Below are positions 1 to 7,934 of a stretch of 64,000 nt of DNA, in pieces. Made by a program: the position numbers and the translations under genes. Source of the DNA: Dictyostelium discoideum (lineage: Eukaryota); assembly GCA_000004695.1 (NCBI GenBank), contig CM000155.2:704001-768000 (forward strand), given 5' to 3'. Each line of letters begins with the position of its first letter. Positions within the stretch are counted from its first letter, which is position 1. Under the pieces are notes generated by a model that was given only the letters and a program-made list of their open reading frames with translations, was not told the DNA's origin and ran no database searches.

Positions 1-1010
1 GAATATAATAAATCACCAATTCTTGTTGGAAATTTTACACCACCATTAGGTAAAACGTTACAACCAGGTTTGCTAATGTCAGCCTTAATTGAAACTTTAT
101 GGCCGTTTCTAACTGAATTAACATTTGAAATTATACCATGTGCAAATTTTATATTTGAATGAATTGAATTTTTTAAATCATTAATTGATGTTCCTTGGAA
201 GTCACCAAATTGACCTGGTACTCCACCCCCTCTATCGGCTGCACCTGATAAATCATAAAAATCATTACCCATTTGAACCAATTTTCTTGATTTCAAAGTC
301 AAATCTGGAACAAAACTTCCATCAAAGGAGTATTTAATTTGTGAAGAATCACTGGTACCCACTGACAATTTTTTATCATCAAGAAATAATTCAACATTAT
401 ATTTAACTTGGACATTTGTTATTTCATGAACATCATAATATGGTGGACGTGGTGATAATGCAACACGATGATAATCACAAATAGTATTAAGAGGTTTTAT
501 ATAACAACCACAATCAAAGTTAGTGTGAGTTGAAGTACAATAACTATTTCCAGGATAGTGTGTTGCCGCATAATCTCGTAACAAACCTTTACAATCAATA
601 TCACTTGGTTGTATTCCTCCGCATACTCCTGTACCACAACTACCTGAACCGTCACATTGTGTTCTTTGAGATATTACTGGTTCAAAACAACTAGTTGAGT
701 ACAAAAATTTTTTATCAGATTCCATATGATAATCGGTAATCTTCAATCTTAAGAGAGCTATTGACTGTTTACTCTCATCCTTTAAATTATAACAACCTTC
801 CCAACTTTTTGATGGTAATGTAAATACATATTCCCCAAAAAATGATGAAGTGATTGTACCATTACCATAATCTTTATTTATTGTTTGAATATTATTTGAA
901 ATTAAATATATTTCATCACAAGAATAACATTTTTCAACAAAAGAACGTGTAATAATTAAAAATAGTAGGGATAGAGAAGATATTGAAAAAGTTTTAAAAT
1001 ATTTCGAAAA
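1..1010 (-). CDS. Secreted cysteine-rich hypothetical protein, 3' part beyond the left edge. The minus-strand reading frame is open from about 1010 down to position 1. It encodes a signal-peptide-like segment (FSISSLSLLFLIIT) followed by a Cys-rich domain (CDGSGSCGTGVCGG, DCGCY).
   Basis: I translated the reverse complement by hand and found more than 300 uninterrupted codons with Dictyostelium-like codon usage. Upstream of the signal peptide there is an in-frame TGA before any ATG, so the initiator is probably in an upstream micro-exon. No family could be recognised. Confidence 0.4.
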
Positions 1011-1261
1011 TGAAACAGAATATATTATTCAATTACTACACCATTCAGCAAAATTAAATAATGAAGAAATGTTTATGTATATATTCGAAAAGTATAAACA
1101 TACAATAACTGATAATAAAATCTATATATTAATAAATAGTATATTCAAAGATAATAATTTAAAAATGGCTCAATTTATATTTAAAAATTTTGAAAATGAA
1201 ATATCACCATTGGGTAATATCTTTTTTTGTAATGATTATGAAAACAAAATTATAAATGTAA

Positions 1262-2190
1262 AACATAAAAACTCACCAATCATATCAACTCTCCAAAGAA
1301 AATAAAAACAAATTTATGTTATTTCCCATAAAATACCCAGACATCTGGAAAATGTATAAAAAAACACTTGCAAATCAATGGGTAGTTGAAGAAATAGAAT
1401 CAAGTGATGATGGATTAGATTGGGAGAAAAAATTAACAAATGATGAACGTGATTTCTTCTCAAATGTTTTAGCATTTTTTGTTGCATCTTGTGGTATTAT
1501 AAATAAAAACCTTAATAGATTTATGTCTAAAGTACAAATTCCAGAAGCGAAATGTTTCTATAATTATCAAATTCATATTAAATATTTACATTCCGAAACT
1601 TATAGGTATGGCAATTAAATTATATATTCATTTATACAATTATTTATGTTTGTTTGTTTATTTATTTATTTTTATTTTTATTTTTCCCTAGTCTTTTAAT
1701 TGAAACTTGTATTAAGGATAAAAATATTAAAGATAAACTTTTTAATGCAATTGAAACAATCCCATGTGTTAAAAAGAAGGCAGAATGGGCTTTAAAATGG
1801 ATAAATGAATCATTTGAAAAACGTCTAGTAGCACTCGTAGCATTTGAAAGTATATTTTTCAGTGGAAGTTTTCGTATAATCAGTTTGTTAAAAAAGAGAT
1901 CTTTGATGCAAGGTTTAACATTTTCAAATGAATTGATTAATTAATTTGATCAAAGATTCACAAATACATATGAACAATGGTTTATAGATAACCTTCCTTT
2001 CGAAGTATATTCATTCTTTCAAACATTTAAAACAAGAAATTTACTAATTCAAATAATGAGCAACAATAAAGTGAGATATTATATAAAAAATATTTCATCA
2101 AAAACAATCATAGGCTACGCAAAAAACATTGGAATAGAAGATGAATATATTTTCTTTTTTGAAAAAATGACCAATAAAGAAATTATATAA
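1262..2190 (+). pseudogene. Degenerate ribonucleotide reductase small subunit (R2)-like paralogue. Conserved blocks lie at 1262-1608 and 1692-1941, with an in-frame TAA at 1942-1944 and continued R2-like reading to 2190. Probable pseudogene or inactive paralogue.
   Basis: The translation matches canonical R2 strongly: FPIKYPDIWKMYKK, NVLAFFVASCGII, KVQIPEAKCFYNYQI, HSETYS|LLIETCIKD (joined across a GTATGG..CTAG intron at 1609-1691), [22 protein letters not shown] and [28 protein letters not shown]. Metal ligands are substituted: Asp->Cys in ASCGII, Glu->Lys in KYLHSE, His->Phe after the stop. The radical-site Tyr (HSETYS) is kept. A stop codon sits at the Arg position of ELISRDEGLH. The N-terminal region switches frame between 1069-1305 and 1262 onward with no room for an intron. 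Confidence 0.6.
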
Positions 2191-2384
2191 ATTGGATTAT
2201 TTATTTATTATTTAAATAAAATCACGATATTAATAAAAGACTATATTTATTTATTTTTTTGTTTTTCCCACCACCCCCAATGGTATTTTTTTGGATCGAT
2301 ACAGAACAAAAATTTAATAAACTCAATTAAATCCATCTATAATAATCAATAAAATTTAATCATATTTATAATTAATATTTTATT

Positions 2385-2454
<70 letters not shown>

Positions 2455-2471
2455 TATTATATTATTATTTA

Positions 2472-2530
<59 letters not shown>

Positions 2531-2713
2531 GGTTCAGTTTTATTTATTACACTTACATTACATTAATTGATTAATATGAACAGATAAAAAAAAAAATAAA
2601 AATAAAAAATGAAATAAAAAAAAAAAATAAAAAAATGAAATAAAAAACAAAAATAATAAAATGAAATAAAAAAATGAAATAAAAAAAATATATAATAAAA
2701 AACATATAATTAA

Positions 2714-3361
2714 TTAAATATTAAATAAATTTTTTATTTTTTTTTGAAAAATTAATGTGGTAATAATTAAACATATCACCAATGTTAATAAAAGTGTTAT
2801 GATTTTGTTATTTTTTATACTAATTAATATAATTTTTAAATTTAATAATAATGTCTTCAAAATAAAAAATAATACTCCCATTGAACTTAATAATATAAAG
2901 GATGATATTATTATATAATAACTTTCAAAACAAATTGGTGATAAAAATGATTTACCACATACATTCATAAATTCTTTTACCCAAATTAAAATATCCATTA
3001 CATGATTCATAATAAAATCGAATATTGTTATTTTACAATGAATTTCCTCTTTGACTTTAATAAAAGGATTATTAATATAGAAAATTTCCATATTAAATGA
3101 TTTTTCATTCGAACAGTACTTTTCAATGTTAATTTCCGTTTGATTTTCAGTTAAATTTATTATATTCTTCTCAAATATTGAATAAATGAGTATAATTTTT
3201 GGTAACGAGTCATTAAAATTTATATGCAAAGTATTAAAATCCAATCTGTAATCATAAATAATGTTGGGAATGAAAATCGAATTATTATTATTATTTCTTT
3301 CTTTTGCTTTGATTTGAATGACTAAAAAAAATAAAAAAATTAAAACGACTTTATTTATCAT
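2714..3361 (-). CDS. Hypothetical protein with a signal peptide and a C-terminal hydrophobic region (215 aa).
   Basis: Intact ORF in the track. It begins MINKVVLIFLFFLVIQIKA and has hydrophobic stretches near the C-terminus. No homology recognised. Confidence 0.35.
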   Translation of the reverse strand: MINKVVLIFLFFLVIQIKAKERNNNNNSIFIPNIIYDYRLDFNTLHINFNDSLPKIILIYSIFEKNIINLTENQTEINIEKYCSNEKSFNMEIFYINNPFIKVKEEIHCKITIFDFIMNHVMDILIWVKEFMNVCGKSFLSPICFESYYIIISSFILLSSMGVLFFILKTLLLNLKIILISIKNNKIITLLLTLVICLIITTLIFQKKIKNLFNI

Positions 3362-3426
3362 ACTCTATAATAATATATATATAAATTGTGGGTATATATA
3401 ATAAAAAATAAATATTAAACACATAT

Positions 3427-3469
<43 letters not shown>

Positions 3470-3506
3470 AATTTTTTTTTTTTTATTTATTTATTTATCC
3501 ATTTTT

Positions 3507-3538
<32 letters not shown>

Positions 3539-3562
3539 CCCCTAAAATTTTTTCTTAAAAAA

Positions 3563-4339
3563 ATGAAATCAATCCTATTTTATTTTGTTTTATTAATATT
3601 TTTAAATAATTATGTTAATGGCAGAATTTCAGTTTCTCCCGAGTATTTATCATCTTCAGATTTCAACTCAAATCATCTTGAACAAAAATTAACAAGTGTT
3701 TATTACAATAAACCAAATTGCACTGAAGGAAATGAACTATATATAAAAATTATTAAAGGCTGTAATTTTAGAGGAAGGGTAGTAGGTAATACCACTCATT
3801 ATATGTTTTATGATGATGATCCAGAAACACCTTTAATATGCAGTAACTTTGATAAAATCTCTGAAGTAGTTTTAAAAAATACTTGTATAAATGAAATTGA
3901 TGGGAGTTCCTTTCTATATAAAGAGTACAACAATTCTGATGAACAACTTTTAAAAAAACCTGGTACAATGGTTACATATATTTACCCCTTTAAAAGTTGT
4001 AGTGAAAATGAATTTATTATAATAAATTTTGAAAATGTTTGTGAAGATATTAATGGTCAAACTGCTCGTAAAATAACATTTGATAAATCAACGCTAATTT
4101 ACCATAATTGTAGTTCTGAATGTGCTTCTTGTGATCCTCAACTAACTACAAATATAGAAAAACCTCAAGAAAAGTGTTTCAATCAAAATAATGAAACAAT
4201 ATTCACATTAACTTTATTTAATCAAAAAGAAAAAAATGCTAGTGCTTTTGATCCTTCAAAAAATGAAGGAATTATTTTATTACAAAACTTTTTATTTTTG
4301 GTCCCCATGATTACTATTTTGATATTGTTTTTTTTTTAA
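3563..4339 (+). CDS. Secreted cysteine-rich protein with a hydrophobic C-terminus, GPI-anchor-like (258 aa).
   Basis: The ORF begins with the signal peptide MKSILFYFVLLIFLNNYVNG and has about 16 Cys and several N-glycosylation sites. The C-terminus is GIILLQNFLFLVPMITILILFFF. It is flanked by poly(T) and poly(A) promoter-like tracts. Confidence 0.45.
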   Translation: MKSILFYFVLLIFLNNYVNGRISVSPEYLSSSDFNSNHLEQKLTSVYYNKPNCTEGNELYIKIIKGCNFRGRVVGNTTHYMFYDDDPETPLICSNFDKISEVVLKNTCINEIDGSSFLYKEYNNSDEQLLKKPGTMVTYIYPFKSCSENEFIIINFENVCEDINGQTARKITFDKSTLIYHNCSSECASCDPQLTTNIEKPQEKCFNQNNETIFTLTLFNQKEKNASAFDPSKNEGIILLQNFLFLVPMITILILFFF

Positions 4340-4884
4340 AAAAAATAATAGTTGAAATTTTAAATTTTTGTAAAAAACTCCTCAAATAAACGCACGCAAT
4401 TTATTTTTTTTTTAATTTTTTTTTTTTTTTTTTTAATTTTTTTTTTTTATTAATATTAAAATTTTTTTTTTTTTTTTTTTATTTTTTTTTTTTGAGTTTT
4501 TATACGAAAGAGAAAACATGATAACATTTGAAGAAATTGCAATAAATAAAATAAATAAAAATAATAAATATATAAACCAATTGATTGAAAATAAGCATTT
4601 ATCCCCAGATACATTCGAGGCATTCGGCAACAAATATGAATGTTATAGTCACATTAACAAAAAATATAAAACAGCAAAACTAGTATTGTCTCAGAGGTCT
4701 TTAGCAGATATATATAAAAACTTTGAAAAGAAACAGTCACCAGAAAGTGAATTCAAAAAATATCTTGAAAATAATAGCATTAAATTCGAGGGTGGGTGAT
4801 TCAATATTTTGAGTTTTTTTTTTAAAAAAAATAACAAAAAATCTCAATATTAATATTTTTTTTTATTTTTTTTTTTATTTTTTC

Positions 4885-4928
<44 letters not shown>

Positions 4929-4992
4929 TTTTTTTTTTTTCTTTTTTTTATATTTAAAAAATAAAGAAAGCAAACTCATTAATGTATTTGAA

Positions 4993-5860
<868 letters not shown>

Positions 5861-5981
5861 ATAAACATTGTCATTTCTTGGTTAATTTTTTCATTTAATT
5901 TTTTCATTTAATTTTTTCATTTAATTTTTTCATTTAATTTTTTTTTTTTTTTTAATTTTTTTTTTTTTTTTTTTTTTTTTC

Positions 5982-5989
5982 TCCCATAA
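5982..5989 (+). promoter_or_regulatory. DUSE-like motif TCCCATAA, matching the [AT]CCCA[CT]AA Dictyostelium upstream sequence element found about 60 bp upstream of many small ncRNA genes.
   Basis: An exact 8-mer match embedded in a poly(T) tract, about 25-65 bp upstream of the palindrome at 6012-6135. A single short motif could be a chance match. Confidence 0.2.
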
Positions 5990-6011
5990 ATTTTTTTAAG
6001 CTTTGCATGGC

Positions 6012-6135
6012 TGTTCATGAACAATTTAATATGATATAAACACAAATTCTATAAACACGAAAATTTGTGTTTATAGAAATTTGTGTTTATATCATATTAA
6101 ATTGTTCATGAACACATTTTTGGTGTTCATGAACA
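6012..6135. repeat. Nested perfect palindrome. The 37-bp arms at 6012-6048 and 6078-6114 are exact reverse complements around an internal 11-bp-arm sub-palindrome at 6049-6077. A third copy of the 12-bp palindromic core TGTTCATGAACA sits at 6124-6135.
   Basis: Read directly from the sequence. TGTTCATGAACAATTTAATATGATATAAACACAAATT pairs with AATTTGTGTTTATATCATATTAAATTGTTCATGAACA. The centre is TCTATAAACACGAAAATTTGTGTTTATAGA. Confidence 0.85.
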
Positions 6136-7007
6136 CCCTATCTCTTTGAAATATGTACAGAATAAGGACTCCTCTCATAAAAAATGTGCAAATAGTTATA
6201 AATAATCGATCTATTAATTTTTTTTTTAATTTAAAAAATTCAATTTTTCAATTACTGATTTCACTTTTTTATAAAATACAATATAACAATTTTTTTTTTT
6301 TTTTTTTTTTATTATTATTGGAAAAGTTTAAAAAGTAATTTTTTGTTAGAAAAGTTTTTAAAACCAAAAGAGTACCATTGAAATAATTTGATAGTTTCTT
6401 GTTCGACATTATTTATTATTGTTATAAATTTTTTTTTTTTTTTTTTTTTCTTCTCCACTCTTTTTATTTTAATTTTTTTTTTTTTTTTTTTTTTTTTAAT
6501 TGAAAATAAAAAAAATATATTTTTATACATATTTAGAATTAATTTATTTTTTTAGAAATAAATTAAAATTAAAAAAAAAATATATATTTCCAACTTTTTA
6601 AATAGAACAATTTGGGGTTGAATAGAAAATATAATTAATTTTTTATTTGGAATTTCTGACAATTATAGTTTTGTATATATTCAAAATTTTAGAAAATTTT
6701 TACTGAACAAAAAAAAAATTTTAAATAAATATATTGTTTTTAAAAAATAGATTTGTAAAAAAAAAAAAAAAAACAAATAAATGAAAAATAGATCAACAAG
6801 AAATTCAACACCATCAAAATTTTCACTTTTTTTTTTCAAAATTTTTTTTATATATTTATTTTTATTTTTTTTTTTATTTTTTTTTTTTATTTTTTTTCAA
6901 AATTTTTAAAAAATTTGAAACCCTTTTTTTTTTTTTTTTTTTTATTTTTATTTATTTTTTTTTTTTAATTAATTAAATTAATTCTTAATAATAATATTTA
7001 TTTAATA

Positions 7008-7934
7008 ATGTCAAATAATAATAAAAATAAATTAGTTACAGTTGTAGATTCAACAAGTGAAGTTGGAGATTTTGTTACAAGAGCATTATTAAAGGAAGGA
7101 TATAAAGTACGTGCATTAACCAGAAATATAGAATCCAATGCAGCCAAAGCATTAAAGAACTTGGATGCCGAAGTTGTCAAATGTAGTGATACCGATTCAC
7201 CAGCAAACATTCAAGCAGCATTAATCGATACAGAAGTTATATTTTATCCAACCAATTTTTGGAGTTCATTTGAAAAGGAAGTAGAGTATGGCATAAAGTT
7301 TGTGGATGCCGCTCTTTCAGTTAAAACCGTTAAACATTATGTATTCCATGGTTTAATTTCATGTAAAACAGTATCAAACGATAAATATTCCGTACCACAT
7401 TTCGATCTTAAATATAGAGTAGAGCAACATTTACGTAAAGTGTCCAAAGAGAACCCAACATTCATTAGTTCTTTCATATATTCACCTTTTTATATGCAAA
7501 ATTTCTCTTCAATTTTCACACCAAAAAGATCAACCACCACCAATGGTACCTACACAATCAGTATGCCACTCGAAGAATCTAAACCATTGGATATGGTTGA
7601 CATTAAAGATATTGGTCCAATCGTTGCTGGTATCGTTGCTAATCCTTCCAAATACTCTGGTGTCATCGTACCTTTAGCTGGTGAGAAATTAACTGGTGAT
7701 CAAATTTGTCAAGTTTTCACCAAAGTCACTGGTAAACAAGTTAAATATAACTATATCCCACCTGCCACCTTTAGAACCTTTGCTTTCCCTTATGCCAATG
7801 AAATCGCTTCAATGTTTCAATTCTTTTCTGAATTTGGTGCTTTCAATGATTTAGATACAACCTTAGCTTCTTCAATTCATAAATTAACTTCTTTAGAAGA
7901 TTATTTAATTTCAACTAAATTTAGATTTGAATAA
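7008..7934 (+). CDS. NmrA-like family NAD(P)-binding protein (308 aa), of the isoflavone reductase / HSCARG type.
   Basis: It has an N-terminal Rossmann motif VTVVDSTSEVGDFVTRALLKEGYKVRALTR and the family-typical block VPHFDLKYRVEQHL. It is a single exon with a clean stop at 7932-7934. Confidence 0.8.
   Translation: MSNNNKNKLVTVVDSTSEVGDFVTRALLKEGYKVRALTRNIESNAAKALKNLDAEVVKCSDTDSPANIQAALIDTEVIFYPTNFWSSFEKEVEYGIKFVDAALSVKTVKHYVFHGLISCKTVSNDKYSVPHFDLKYRVEQHLRKVSKENPTFISSFIYSPFYMQNFSSIFTPKRSTTTNGTYTISMPLEESKPLDMVDIKDIGPIVAGIVANPSKYSGVIVPLAGEKLTGDQICQVFTKVTGKQVKYNYIPPATFRTFAFPYANEIASMFQFFSEFGAFNDLDTTLASSIHKLTSLEDYLISTKFRFE

What the first reader, a model, noticed from the sequence alone, without database searches (positions are those of the whole stretch)
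5982..6135. Roughly 125-bp nested perfect palindrome downstream of a DUSE-like ncRNA promoter motif.
A 37-bp perfect inverted repeat with a 29-nt spacer that is itself an 11-bp-arm palindrome is highly non-random in AT-rich intergenic DNA. A third copy of the 12-bp palindromic core TGTTCATGAACA follows. Directly upstream is TCCCATAA at 5982-5989, matching the Dictyostelium upstream sequence element of Pol II/III small-RNA genes. The candidates are a hairpin small-RNA precursor (miRNA or siRNA-like), a MITE-like foldback element, or a protein-binding palindromic operator array.
Basis: seen in the sequence. Interest (0 to 1): 0.55.

Follow-up and report, generated by a model that had tools for sequence, protein, structure and literature searches.

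The report
Young palindrome inside plasmid-derived insertion
A real, almost perfect 103-bp DNA palindrome with an extra copy of its 12-bp end box sits in a 6.7-kb block of plasmid-related DNA that only the Dictyostelium discoideum AX4 lineage carries; it looks like a leftover array of protein-binding sites, not the promoter-driven small-RNA gene that was proposed.

Summary
Arms 6012-6048 and 6078-6114 are 37 nt and 100% complementary, and the 29-nt spacer is itself palindromic. A third TGTTCATGAACA lies at 6124-6135. It is the longest perfect inverted repeat in the window and the only one with complex sequence; simulated sequences give arms of 16 nt at most. An independent assembly carries it unchanged.

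The DUSE reading fails. The 8-mer occurs at chance frequency (9 seen, 8.6 expected). No Class I RNA or other Rfam family lies downstream. The predicted start site falls inside the left arm.

Context changes the picture. The window is D. discoideum AX4. The palindrome lies 208 bp inside the right edge of a 6,689-bp block that is absent from the same locus in eight related genomes. The block holds a homologue of the nuclear-plasmid "D2 ORF" and a second gene. Both also occur on a plasmid-like D. citrinum contig, which has its own box-studded intergenic palindrome.

The best reading (confidence about 0.4) is a relic dyad array of dimer-binding boxes from Ddp1/Ddp5-like plasmid DNA. The rivals are a young hairpin-RNA locus and a neutral inverted duplication. 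No other copy was found, but the AX4 genome could not be searched. No transcript data were available. Interest is modest.

The parts
1..6342 (.). Window part of a 6,689-bp lineage-specific block. It begins about 385 bp left of the window (L001 2655) and ends at window 6342. It is present in AX4 and L001 and absent from the orthologous locus in eight related genomes.
   Evidence: Homology of L002, L008 and L011 to the window starts at 6343, and of L013 at 6339. All relatives have MFS - DUF6748 - CfaA-like - NmrA with no block. The relatives' roughly 280-bp spacer is not found inside the block.
3..746 (-). DDB_G0291774. It carries a phlebovirus Gc (G2) fusion-domain-like region and is a homologue of the Dictyostelium nuclear-plasmid 'D2 ORF'. 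The ORF runs off the left end of the window.
   Evidence: Pfam PF07245: E 1.5e-11, 44.3 bits against a cut-off of 22.9. P0030 'D2 ORF': E 3.2e-12 among 1.84 billion representatives. BLASTP E 2e-21.
3563..4339 (+). DDB_G0291766, a secreted-type 'orphan' protein with a homologue on the plasmid-like D. citrinum contig L128.
   Evidence: The only hit in the 5.8-billion-cluster search was itself. tblastn to L128: E 1.5e-21. BLASTP: 35% over 149 aa, E 3e-24.
4518..5860 (+). Upstream gene region (DDB_G0291778 and preceding ORFs, including a poly-Asn tract). The unspliced stop codon ends at 5860, 152 nt before the palindrome.
   Evidence: The L001 annotation ends the gene here.
5938..5980 (+). T-tract (T16 AA T25). 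It resembles the T-rich stretch that precedes Dictyostelium pri-miRNA and mRNA start sites. In the reference gene model it lies inside an intron.
   Evidence: Sequence. Motif description in PMC6161686. Intron inferred.
5982..5989 (+). TCCCATAA, a DUSE-like 8-mer. Judged a chance match.
   Evidence: 9 matches in the window against 8.58 expected. No ncRNA family lies downstream.
6000..6240 (.). Island of complex sequence that holds the element: 24% GC, against 10-11% GC in the intergenic DNA on either side.
6001..6039 (+). Terminal exon (LCMAVHEQFNMI*) implied by the deposited DDB_G0291778 protein, with an intron at 5828-6000. It overlaps 28 nt of the left arm. The gene model is unverified.
   Evidence: P0001 sequence and translation of the window.
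6012..6048 (.). Left arm of the 37-nt perfect inverted repeat. It contains box P1 (6012-6023) and sub-repeat TATAAACAC (6035-6043).
6049..6077 (.). Spacer, itself a palindrome: TATAAACAC at 6050-6058 and GTGTTTATA at 6067-6075. The centre of the 103-bp palindrome lies here.
6078..6114 (.). Right arm of the inverted repeat. It contains GTGTTTATA (6083-6091) and box P2 (6103-6114).
6122..6137 (.). Box P3: the 16-bp perfect palindrome GGTGTTCATGAACACC, with the 12-mer core at 6124-6135. It starts 21 bp after P2. The 13-mer TGTTCATGAACAC is identical in P2 and P3, while the 8 nt that follow each copy are unrelated.
   Evidence: (family D9).

Best explanation
The element is a DNA-level feature. It is a young, dyad-symmetric cluster of short repeated boxes that came in with, or was made during, the insertion of a 6.7-kb piece of Ddp1/Ddp5-type nuclear-plasmid-related DNA into chromosome 6 of the D. 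discoideum AX4 lineage.

Anatomy (shown). There are three copies of a self-complementary box: TGTTCATGAACA, extended to GGTGTTCATGAACACC in the third copy. There are also four copies of TATAAACAC(A/G)AAA. The layout is [P]-N-[R][R] | [R'][R']-N-[P]-N9-[P].

Proposed mechanism (inferred). Each P box is a site for a dimeric DNA-binding protein. P2 and P3 are two helical turns apart, on the same face of the helix, and the whole array has dyad symmetry. This is the layout of plasmid and viral origin, partition or promoter-operator inverted repeats. The likely binder would be a plasmid-encoded factor. The block carries no such regulator or Rep gene, so the array is probably an orphaned relic in today's chromosome.

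Origin of the perfect symmetry (inferred). It is best explained by a recent fold-back (inverted) duplication of about 51 bp of a pre-existing [R][R]-N-[P]-N9-[P] array.
For: 1. The boxes are highly non-random. The 12-mer occurs three times within 124 bp and nowhere else in 64 kb, against 0.36 expected.
2. P2 and P3 share an identical 13-mer at 21-bp spacing, but what follows them is unrelated (ATTTTTGG versus CCTATCTC). A simple tandem duplication does not explain this. Box-specific constraint does.
3. P3 lies outside the big palindrome, so neither hairpin formation nor one inverted duplication accounts for it.
4. The element sits in a 24% GC island within 10-11% GC intergenic DNA.
5. It lies inside a 6,689-bp block that is absent from the same locus in eight related genomes: other D. 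discoideum isolates, D. cf. discoideum, D. citrinum, D. firmibasis and D. dimigraforme. The block is therefore a derived insertion.
6. The block encodes a homologue of the plasmid 'D2 ORF' and a second gene, DDB_G0291766. Both have homologues within about 4 kb of each other on the D. citrinum contig L128.
7. L128 also encodes three proteins with weak HHCC zinc-domain hits. It has a 476-bp intergenic palindrome studded with repeated short palindromic boxes, GTAAGGGC-N-GCCCTTAC four times. That is the same kind of architecture in plasmid-like DNA.
8. The same 12-mer is used as a tandem iteron-like unit in three unrelated viral contigs. This shows it is a workable protein-binding unit. It is an analogy only.
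Against: - No binding protein is known, and nothing here tests binding.
- L128's box sequences differ from these, and there is no DNA-level similarity between the element and L128.
- The gene order around the two palindromes differs.
- The block has no Rep gene (Pfam Dicty_REP was not hit) and no HHCC-type gene, so no cognate factor is encoded nearby.
- The attribution of 'D2 ORF' to plasmids Ddp1/Ddp5 rests on my memory of Rieben et al. 1998. So do the G5 HHCC domain and a 'TGTCATGACA' box in Ddp2-family plasmids. That paper and the plasmid sequences could not be read.
- D2-like genes also occur on large scaffolds of other species, so the gene family need not be exclusively plasmid-borne.
- Only two near-identical genomes carry the element, so there is no evidence of selection.
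Confidence: 0.4

Rival explanations
1. Young hairpin-RNA locus. The 103-nt palindrome is transcribed by Pol II, either from the T-tract upstream or as the terminal exon and 3' UTR of DDB_G0291778. It folds into a roughly 50-bp perfect stem and is diced by DrnB into 21-nt siRNA- or miRNA-like RNAs.
For: - The fold is very stable: -63.3 kcal/mol, or -0.61 kcal/mol/nt at 37 C and -0.78 at 22 C. That is within or beyond the -0.5 to -0.73 range of accepted D. discoideum miRNA hairpins.
- A T16-AA-T25 tract lies 30-75 nt upstream, like the T-rich stretch before mapped pri-miRNA start sites (PMC6161686).
- Most Dictyostelium miRNA genes are single-copy, intergenic and species-specific.
- The reference gene model places an exon at 6001-6039, which would put the hairpin in an mRNA.
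- Sub-threshold Rfam hits are to generic miRNA hairpin families.
Against: - The sequence is absent from the miRNA tables of Liao 2018 and Meier 2016 and from the Edelbroek 2024 supplements. The 17 loci of Avesson 2012 could not be checked.
- The Rfam hits are on both strands and far below gathering scores, as expected for any palindrome.
- T-tracts are everywhere in this genome.
- The third box and the internal direct repeats have no role in a hairpin.
- The other annotation of the same gene stops at 5860 with no such exon.
- No transcript data were available.
Confidence: 0.22
2. Neutral by-product. A fold-back or template-switch inverted duplication arose during the messy insertion or later repair, in a stretch that happened to be repeat-rich. 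It has no function at the DNA or RNA level.
For: - The near-perfect symmetry (one bulge) implies a very recent origin.
- The host block is a mosaic of truncated genes: a D2-like fragment and an RNR small chain covering profile positions 4-189 of 281, split into two ORFs. About 250 bp of ancestral spacer was lost at insertion.
- The two R units are a plain 16-bp tandem duplication (family D10).
- There is no conservation to argue for function.
Against: - It does not explain identical 13-mer boxes with unrelated flanks at 21-bp spacing.
- It does not explain why each box is itself a perfect 12-16-bp palindrome.
- It does not explain the GC island.
- It is compatible with the best explanation as the step that created the symmetry, but not as the whole story.
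Confidence: 0.28
3. MITE-like foldback transposon: a short non-autonomous element made of two terminal inverted repeats, present in many copies.
For: The foldback shape. D. discoideum does have short repetitive DNA elements such as thug-S that also give small RNAs.
Against: - There is no other full or partial copy in the 64-kb window, in L001, or in eight related 21-kb loci.
- No target-site duplication flanks 6012-6114: GCATGGC on the left against CATTTTT on the right.
- There are no matches in the viral, metagenome or prokaryote collections beyond the 12-16-mers themselves.
- About 250 kb is too small a sample to exclude a low-copy family.
Confidence: 0.05
4. DUSE-driven small ncRNA gene (Class I-like or another Pol II/III small RNA) starting about 60 nt downstream of TCCCATAA.
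For: An exact DUSE-consensus 8-mer lies at 5982-5989. A T5 run at 6117-6121 could act as a Pol III stop, giving a transcript of about 74 nt.
Against: - The motif occurs at chance frequency.
- There is no RF01414 or other Rfam hit.
- No match to the 11-nt Class I motif, as I recall it from memory, lies within 5860-7010.
- The predicted start falls inside the left arm.
- The only AAATGTG box is 200 nt away.
Confidence: 0.03

Closest known systems
Inverted repeats of Dictyostelium nuclear plasmids (Ddp2 family, about 0.5-kb arms; Ddp5, 1.6 kb), which act with plasmid-encoded Rep or transcription factors. Details are from memory of Leiting 1990, Rieben 1998 and Shammat & Welker 1999; these were not readable here.
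   Same: An intergenic dyad-symmetric element containing short palindromic boxes, in DNA that carries a D2-type plasmid gene. The plasmid-like contig L128 shows the same design. The box TGTTCATGAACA differs by one inserted base per half-site from the 'TGTCATGACA' box I recall for Ddp2-family plasmids (memory only).
   Different: The arms are about 51 bp, not hundreds of bp. The element is chromosomal, not episomal. The block has no Rep or HHCC-type gene. The box sequences are not shared with L128. No plasmid sequence could be compared.
Dyad-symmetry origin or operator arrays of episomes and viruses, for example the EBV oriP DS element with 21-bp-spaced palindromic EBNA1 sites, and phage or plasmid iterons (general knowledge).
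   Same: Repeated palindromic sites of 12-16 bp, 21-bp spacing between two of them, and overall dyad symmetry. The identical 12-mer forms iteron-like arrays in three viral contigs.
   Different: Analogy only. There is no homology, no known binding protein, and no evidence of origin or partition activity.
D. discoideum DrnB-dependent miRNA hairpins (Avesson 2012; Meier 2016, PMC4894637; Liao 2018, PMC6161686).
   Same: Single-copy, lineage-specific hairpin of about 100-150 nt with comparable or stronger folding energy per nucleotide, and a T-tract upstream.
   Different: It is not among the listed loci I could check. The stem is essentially perfect. An extra box lies outside the hairpin. No read data were available.
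DUSE-dependent ncRNA genes, including Class I RNAs (Rfam RF01414; Kjellin 2021, PMC7919456).
   Same: An exact DUSE-consensus 8-mer lies upstream.
   Different: The motif is at chance frequency. There is no Class I covariance-model hit, no 11-nt motif, and the geometry is wrong.
Foldback or MITE-type elements such as thug-S in D. discoideum.
   Same: Foldback shape.
   Different: No further copies and no target-site duplication in the data held.

Membership tests
DUSE-dependent ncRNA gene / Class I RNA (RF01414) | A DUSE motif present more often than chance and about 60 nt upstream of the start site or of an AAATGTG box | tested here: not met
   9 matches against 8.58 expected in the window. 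The +60 position is 6042-6049, inside the left arm. The nearest AAATGTG is at 6182. Criteria are from PMC7919456.
DUSE-dependent ncRNA gene / Class I RNA (RF01414) | An RNA matching the family model (terminal 6-bp stem, 11-nt motif, about 60 nt long) | tested here: not met
   No Rfam hit at gathering score in the window. No RF01414 hit at E <= 10 in 5860-7010. No match with 2 or fewer mismatches to the motif, as recalled from memory, within 5860-7010.
Dictyostelium miRNA gene | A hairpin with folding energy below -0.2 kcal/mol/nt | tested here: met
   -0.61 kcal/mol/nt at 37 C. Any palindrome would pass this test.
Dictyostelium miRNA gene | At least 10 reads each for the 5p and 3p species, with defined 5' ends, a 2-nt overhang and DrnB dependence | not testable with these tools
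   No read data. The sequence is absent from the Liao 2018, Meier 2016 and Edelbroek 2024 tables.
MITE / foldback transposon | Multiple dispersed copies | tested here: inconclusive
   None in the 64-kb window or in about 190 kb of related loci. The whole AX4 genome was not searchable.
MITE / foldback transposon | A target-site duplication flanking the inverted repeats | tested here: not met
   The flanks ...GCATGGC and CATTTTT... share no direct repeat.
Ddp-type nuclear-plasmid inverted repeat | Located in plasmid DNA or plasmid-derived DNA | tested here: met
   The block carries a D2-ORF homologue and a second gene shared with the plasmid-like contig L128. The block is absent from eight related genomes. 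The attribution of 'D2 ORF' to Ddp1/Ddp5 is from memory.
Ddp-type nuclear-plasmid inverted repeat | A cognate Rep or regulator gene encoded on the same element | tested here: not met
   No Dicty_REP or HHCC hit among the eight ORFs scanned, seven of them in the block.
Ddp-type nuclear-plasmid inverted repeat | Sequence similarity of the arms or boxes to known plasmid inverted repeats | not testable with these tools
   Plasmid sequences and papers are not held. There is no similarity to the L128 palindrome.
Ddp-type nuclear-plasmid inverted repeat | Supports extrachromosomal replication or binds a plasmid factor | not testable with these tools
   Needs an ARS assay or a gel-shift experiment.

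The most novel reading that the evidence does not exclude
The 6.7-kb block is a previously unreported chromosomal integration of a Ddp1/Ddp5-like nuclear plasmid segment in the AX4/NC4 lineage. The palindrome is that plasmid's still-recognisable cis element (origin, partition or promoter-operator). It can still be bound by plasmid factors, or it is transcribed into a hairpin that feeds the RNAi machinery. Either way the chromosome would hold a handle on plasmid biology, through tethering, incompatibility or silencing.
Probability: 0.15. Interest if true: 0.6.

Novelty: new variant of a known kind. Interest (0 to 1): 0.35.

Why it matters
On its own the palindrome is a modest curiosity: a single, young, unconserved element with no demonstrated activity.

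It matters more as a marker. It led to a lineage-specific insertion in the reference D. discoideum genome whose genes tie it to the Ddp nuclear plasmids. Those are one of only two well-characterised families of natural nuclear plasmids in eukaryotes (PMC11962162).

If the element is a real plasmid cis site, it offers three things:
- a short, defined sequence for finding the unknown DNA-binding factors of these plasmids;
- a natural example of plasmid-to-chromosome transfer;
- a test bed for how a perfect palindrome of about 100 bp is tolerated in a eukaryotic chromosome.

The reference annotation also deserves a second look here. The gene model of DDB_G0291778 runs into the palindrome.

Tried and rejected
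- DUSE / Class I RNA. Rejected on motif frequency, geometry and the absence of RF01414.
- Known miRNA. The hairpin sequence is absent from the supplements of Liao 2018, Meier 2016 and Edelbroek 2024. None of the 24 mature sequences listed in Liao's Table S1 maps to the window. A full-text search for six internal 15-mers, in DNA and RNA letters, returned no paper. The 12-mer occurs only in unrelated papers.
- Transposon termini. There is no inverted or direct partner of the block's right end at its left end, and no Helitron-like TC...CTRR ends.
- Viral origin of the block. The Gc-like ORF has no relative in IMG/VR. The RNR fragment is only 52-59% identical to viral R2 proteins, which is generic family conservation. 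The best PDB match to the Gc-like ORF has E = 0.41.
- Giant-virus 'hairpin rule' terminators. No comparable palindromes follow the other ORFs of the block.
- Collection scans for the arm architecture. Viral, metagenome and prokaryote scans gave only chance or analogous hits that share nothing beyond 12-16-mers.
- PLSDB holds only bacterial plasmids; the hits were chance matches.
- Reading Rieben et al. 1998 (PMC1460040) failed, and 'TGTCATGACA' is not in the searchable library.
- The 215-aa ORF at 2714-3361 as the N-terminal half of a D2-like protein: not significant, E about 1.
- The island 5990-6260 as a coding relic related to L128: no signal.
- Look-ups of the 61-aa and 42-aa ORFs beside or over the palindrome, and of DDB_G0291766, in the assembly index found nothing. 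Genome-wide copy number could not be obtained that way.
- lncRNA supplements contain none of the flanking gene IDs.
- The phage-like contig L015, which carries the same 12-mer as an iteron, could not be identified in the phage collection.
Full report
OBSERVATION

The sequence is as described. The arms 6012-6048 and 6078-6114 are 37 nt long and 100% complementary, with 29 nt between them. The spacer is itself palindromic: CTATAAACAC / GTGTTTATAG, or 12-nt arms if the flanking TT/AA are counted. So 6012-6114 is a 103-bp palindrome with one bulged base and a 4-nt loop.

As RNA the palindrome folds at -63.3 kcal/mol, which is -0.61 kcal/mol per nucleotide. The 136-nt stretch folds at -70.1 kcal/mol with z = -12.95, and as DNA the z-score is -13.66. 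No shuffle folds as well in either case.

TGTTCATGAACA occurs at 6012, 6103 and 6124 and nowhere else in 64 kb, even allowing one mismatch. Chance expectation is 0.36. The third copy is the core of a perfect 16-bp palindrome, GGTGTTCATGAACACC, at 6122-6137. Each half of the big palindrome also holds two copies of TATAAACAC(A/G)AAA.

Among all perfect inverted repeats in the window this is the longest, and it is the only one that is not an A-run paired with a T-run. In 40 composition-matched simulations the longest complex perfect arm was 16 nt or less. An independent assembly, L001, carries the element base for base, while homopolymer lengths around it differ. It is therefore not an assembly artefact.

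WHERE WE ARE

The flanking proteins identify the window as Dictyostelium discoideum AX4, on a 3.6-Mb contig. That length fits chromosome 6, as I recall it; the chromosome assignment was not verified.
- DDB_G0291766 is at 3563-4339.
- DDB_G0291778 ends at 5860.
- The NmrA-like gene DDB_G0291732 is at 7008-7934.

THE DUSE CLAIM

The consensus WCCCAYAA occurs 9 times in the window against 8.6 expected by chance. The literature places DUSE about 60 nt upstream of the start site, or of an AAATGTG box. It also defines Class I RNAs as Rfam family RF01414 (PMC7919456).

At this locus:
- The point 60 nt downstream is 6042-6049, inside the left arm. A transcript starting there keeps only the inner hairpin (-22.6 kcal/mol).
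- The only AAATGTG nearby is at 6182.
- Rfam gives nothing at gathering score in the whole window.
- At E <= 10 in 5860-7010, Rfam gives only generic miRNA-hairpin families, on both strands and far below their thresholds.

I regard the DUSE match as chance.

COMPARATIVE CONTEXT

This was the most informative step. I fetched the orthologous locus of the NmrA-like gene from nine other assemblies.

L001 is 99.6% identical to the window and has the element. The other eight lack the palindrome and its sub-motifs: two other isolates labelled D. discoideum (about 90% identical here), two D. cf. discoideum, two D. citrinum, D. firmibasis and D. dimigraforme. All eight have the gene order MFS - DUF6748 - CfaA-like - NmrA. 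In the four closest genomes, homology to the window begins at 6339-6343.

Relative to them, AX4 and L001 carry a 6,689-bp block, L001 2655-9343. It begins about 385 bp left of the window and ends at window 6342. The block replaces about 250 bp of ancestral spacer, and none of that spacer survives inside the block. By parsimony the block is a derived insertion. The palindrome ends 208 bp inside its right edge. No terminal inverted repeats or target-site duplication mark the block.

WHAT THE BLOCK IS

Pfam finds a phlebovirus Gc (G2) fusion domain in the ORF at its left end, DDB_G0291774: 44 bits against a cut-off of 22.9. It also finds a truncated ribonucleotide-reductase small chain split into two ORFs. 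The remaining ORFs are orphans.

An exhaustive search of 1.84 billion representative proteins found only 13 relatives of the Gc-like ORF. Among them are two GenBank proteins named "D2 ORF [Dictyostelium discoideum]" (AAC18624.1 and AAC18631.1). BLASTP against the first gives E = 2e-21. From my memory of Rieben et al. 1998, D2 is a gene of the nuclear plasmids Ddp1 and Ddp5. That paper could not be read here. The D2 protein itself passes the Pfam Gc-domain threshold.

Another relative lies on a 48.5-kb D. citrinum contig, fetched as L128. On that contig:
- The "orphan" DDB_G0291766 has a homologue (35% over 149 aa, E = 3e-24) about 1.4 kb from the D2-like gene.
- Three proteins give weak HHCC zinc-domain hits, below Pfam's threshold. 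As I recall, the plasmid G5 proteins carry an HHCC domain.
- A 476-bp imperfect palindrome lies between two divergent genes. It is studded with repeated short palindromic boxes: GTAAGGGC-N-GCCCTTAC four times, plus a CCGGCA-centred box twice.

So the AX4 block shares two neighbouring gene families with plasmid-like DNA. That DNA has the same kind of box-filled intergenic palindrome, although the box sequences differ and there is no DNA-level similarity. The block has no Rep or HHCC-type gene, so it is at best a defective fragment.

WHAT THE PALINDROME MOST LIKELY IS

Three features argue for a DNA-level array of protein-binding boxes, as opposed to an RNA gene or a pure accident.
- P2 and P3 share an identical 13-mer at 21-bp spacing (two helical turns), while the sequences that follow them are unrelated.
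- Each box is itself a perfect 12-16-bp palindrome, the signature of a dimeric binder.
- P3 lies outside the large palindrome, so hairpin formation or a single inverted duplication does not explain it.

The element also sits in a 24% GC island within 10-11% GC intergenic DNA. The identical 12-mer serves as a tandem iteron-like unit in three unrelated viral contigs. That is an analogy, not homology.

The near-perfect symmetry is best explained by a recent fold-back duplication of about 51 bp of a pre-existing [R][R]-N-[P]-N9-[P] array. I therefore favour, at a confidence of about 0.4, a relic dyad-symmetric cis element of plasmid origin, of the origin, partition or promoter-operator type. It is probably orphaned now, because its presumed binding factor is not encoded in the block. 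Binding, origin activity and any link to specific plasmid sequences are inferred, not shown.

RIVALS

Hairpin RNA (about 0.22).
- For: the fold is as strong as or stronger than accepted Dictyostelium miRNA hairpins (-0.5 to -0.73 kcal/mol/nt). A T16-AA-T25 tract upstream resembles the T-rich stretch before mapped pri-miRNA start sites. The deposited DDB_G0291778 protein ends ...LLFYEK|LCMAVHEQFNMI*, which implies an intron at 5828-6000 and a terminal exon at 6001-6039 that runs into the left arm.
- Against: the sequence is not in the miRNA tables I could check. The alternative annotation stops the gene at 5860. T-tracts are ubiquitous in this genome. I had no read data.

Neutral inverted duplication in a junk-like mosaic (about 0.28). 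This explains the symmetry but not the boxes.

MITE (about 0.05). There is no second copy in about 250 kb of Dictyostelium sequence held and no target-site duplication. The full genome could not be searched.

DUSE-driven ncRNA (about 0.03). Effectively refuted.

NOVELTY AND VERDICT

The feature is real and statistically exceptional. It is also single-copy in the data held, young, unconserved and without demonstrated activity. It fails the membership tests for DUSE genes and MITEs, and it cannot be tested for miRNA status here. It resembles the plasmid inverted repeats in design and context, but not in size, sequence or an accompanying Rep gene. I class it as a new variant of a known kind, with modest interest (0.35). 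The more interesting by-products are listed under things noticed in passing: the plasmid-related, lineage-specific insertion in the reference genome, and the Gc-like fusion domain of the plasmid D2 protein family.

Noticed in passing
window <1..6342 (L001 2655-9343): A 6,689-bp block is present only in AX4 and L001 and absent from the same locus in eight related Dictyostelium genomes. It replaces about 250 bp of ancestral spacer. The left junction lies directly after an (ATTT)n repeat, and the right junction is at 6342/6343. There are no terminal repeats or target-site duplication.
   Followed up: yes
window 3-746 (-), continuing to L001 2841; proteins P0030/P0043: DDB_G0291774 and the Dictyostelium 'D2 ORF' proteins both pass Pfam's threshold for the phlebovirus Gc (class II fusion) domain. 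As I recall, the D2 ORFs belong to nuclear plasmids Ddp1/Ddp5. The family has only 13 detectable relatives in 1.84 billion representatives, several of them long Gc-domain proteins from Logan and JGI contigs. A fusogen-like glycoprotein on a eukaryotic nuclear plasmid may be worth a study of its own. I found no literature on it.
   Followed up: partly
L128 17145-17620 (D. citrinum contig JBTAPK010000030.1): A 476-bp imperfect palindrome (83% self-complementary) lies between two divergent genes that both give weak HHCC zinc-domain hits. It contains GTAAGGGC-N-GCCCTTAC four times and a CCGGCA-centred box twice. The contig carries the D2-like gene twice and may be a plasmid concatemer.
   Followed up: partly
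window 3563-4339 (+) and L128 13623-14387 (-): The 'orphan' DDB_G0291766 matched nothing but itself in the 5.8-billion-cluster search. It is nevertheless 35% identical (E = 3e-24) to a gene next to the D2-like gene on the D. citrinum contig.
   Followed up: yes
window 1316-1944 (+) (L001 4355-4983): A truncated ribonucleotide-reductase small-chain copy covers Pfam profile positions 4-189 of 281 and is split into two ORFs. It is 52-59% identical to viral R2 proteins. It is probably a pseudogene fragment, and its source (host rnrB or foreign) was not resolved.
   Followed up: partly
window 2648-6321: All 9 base substitutions between the window and L001 across 17.9 kb fall inside the block, and none in the 11.6 kb to its right. 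Every one gives A or T in L001. This could be faster change, lower sequence quality in the block, or long-read error.
   Followed up: no
window 5641 and 5828-6039: A 1-bp difference (GGGG in the window, GGG in L001) joins the poly-Asn ORF 4993-5658 to the ORF ending at 5860. Accordingly, the L001 annotation calls one 641-aa gene over 3563-5860. The reference model DDB_G0291778 (81 aa) instead uses an intron at 5828-6000 with a weak GTTTTA donor, and a 12-codon exon inside the palindrome. The gene models here conflict.
   Followed up: partly
window 5880-5941: A 13-bp unit, TTAATTTTTTCAT, is repeated four to five times in tandem just after the upstream gene's stop codon and before the long T-tract.
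   Followed up: no
L001 2100-2650 versus L002 7402-9109: The CfaA_B_C-like gene left of the block has a 1-bp deletion in L001 relative to its orthologues, so it may be a pseudogene. In L002 the gene is tandemly duplicated.
   Followed up: no
window 29634-29934: A run of 301 N, which is an assembly gap in the reference.
   Followed up: no
window 13539-13639 (-): Three exact ACCCACAA (DUSE-consensus) matches lie within 100 bp on the minus strand. They are probably part of a coding repeat. This was not examined.
   Followed up: no
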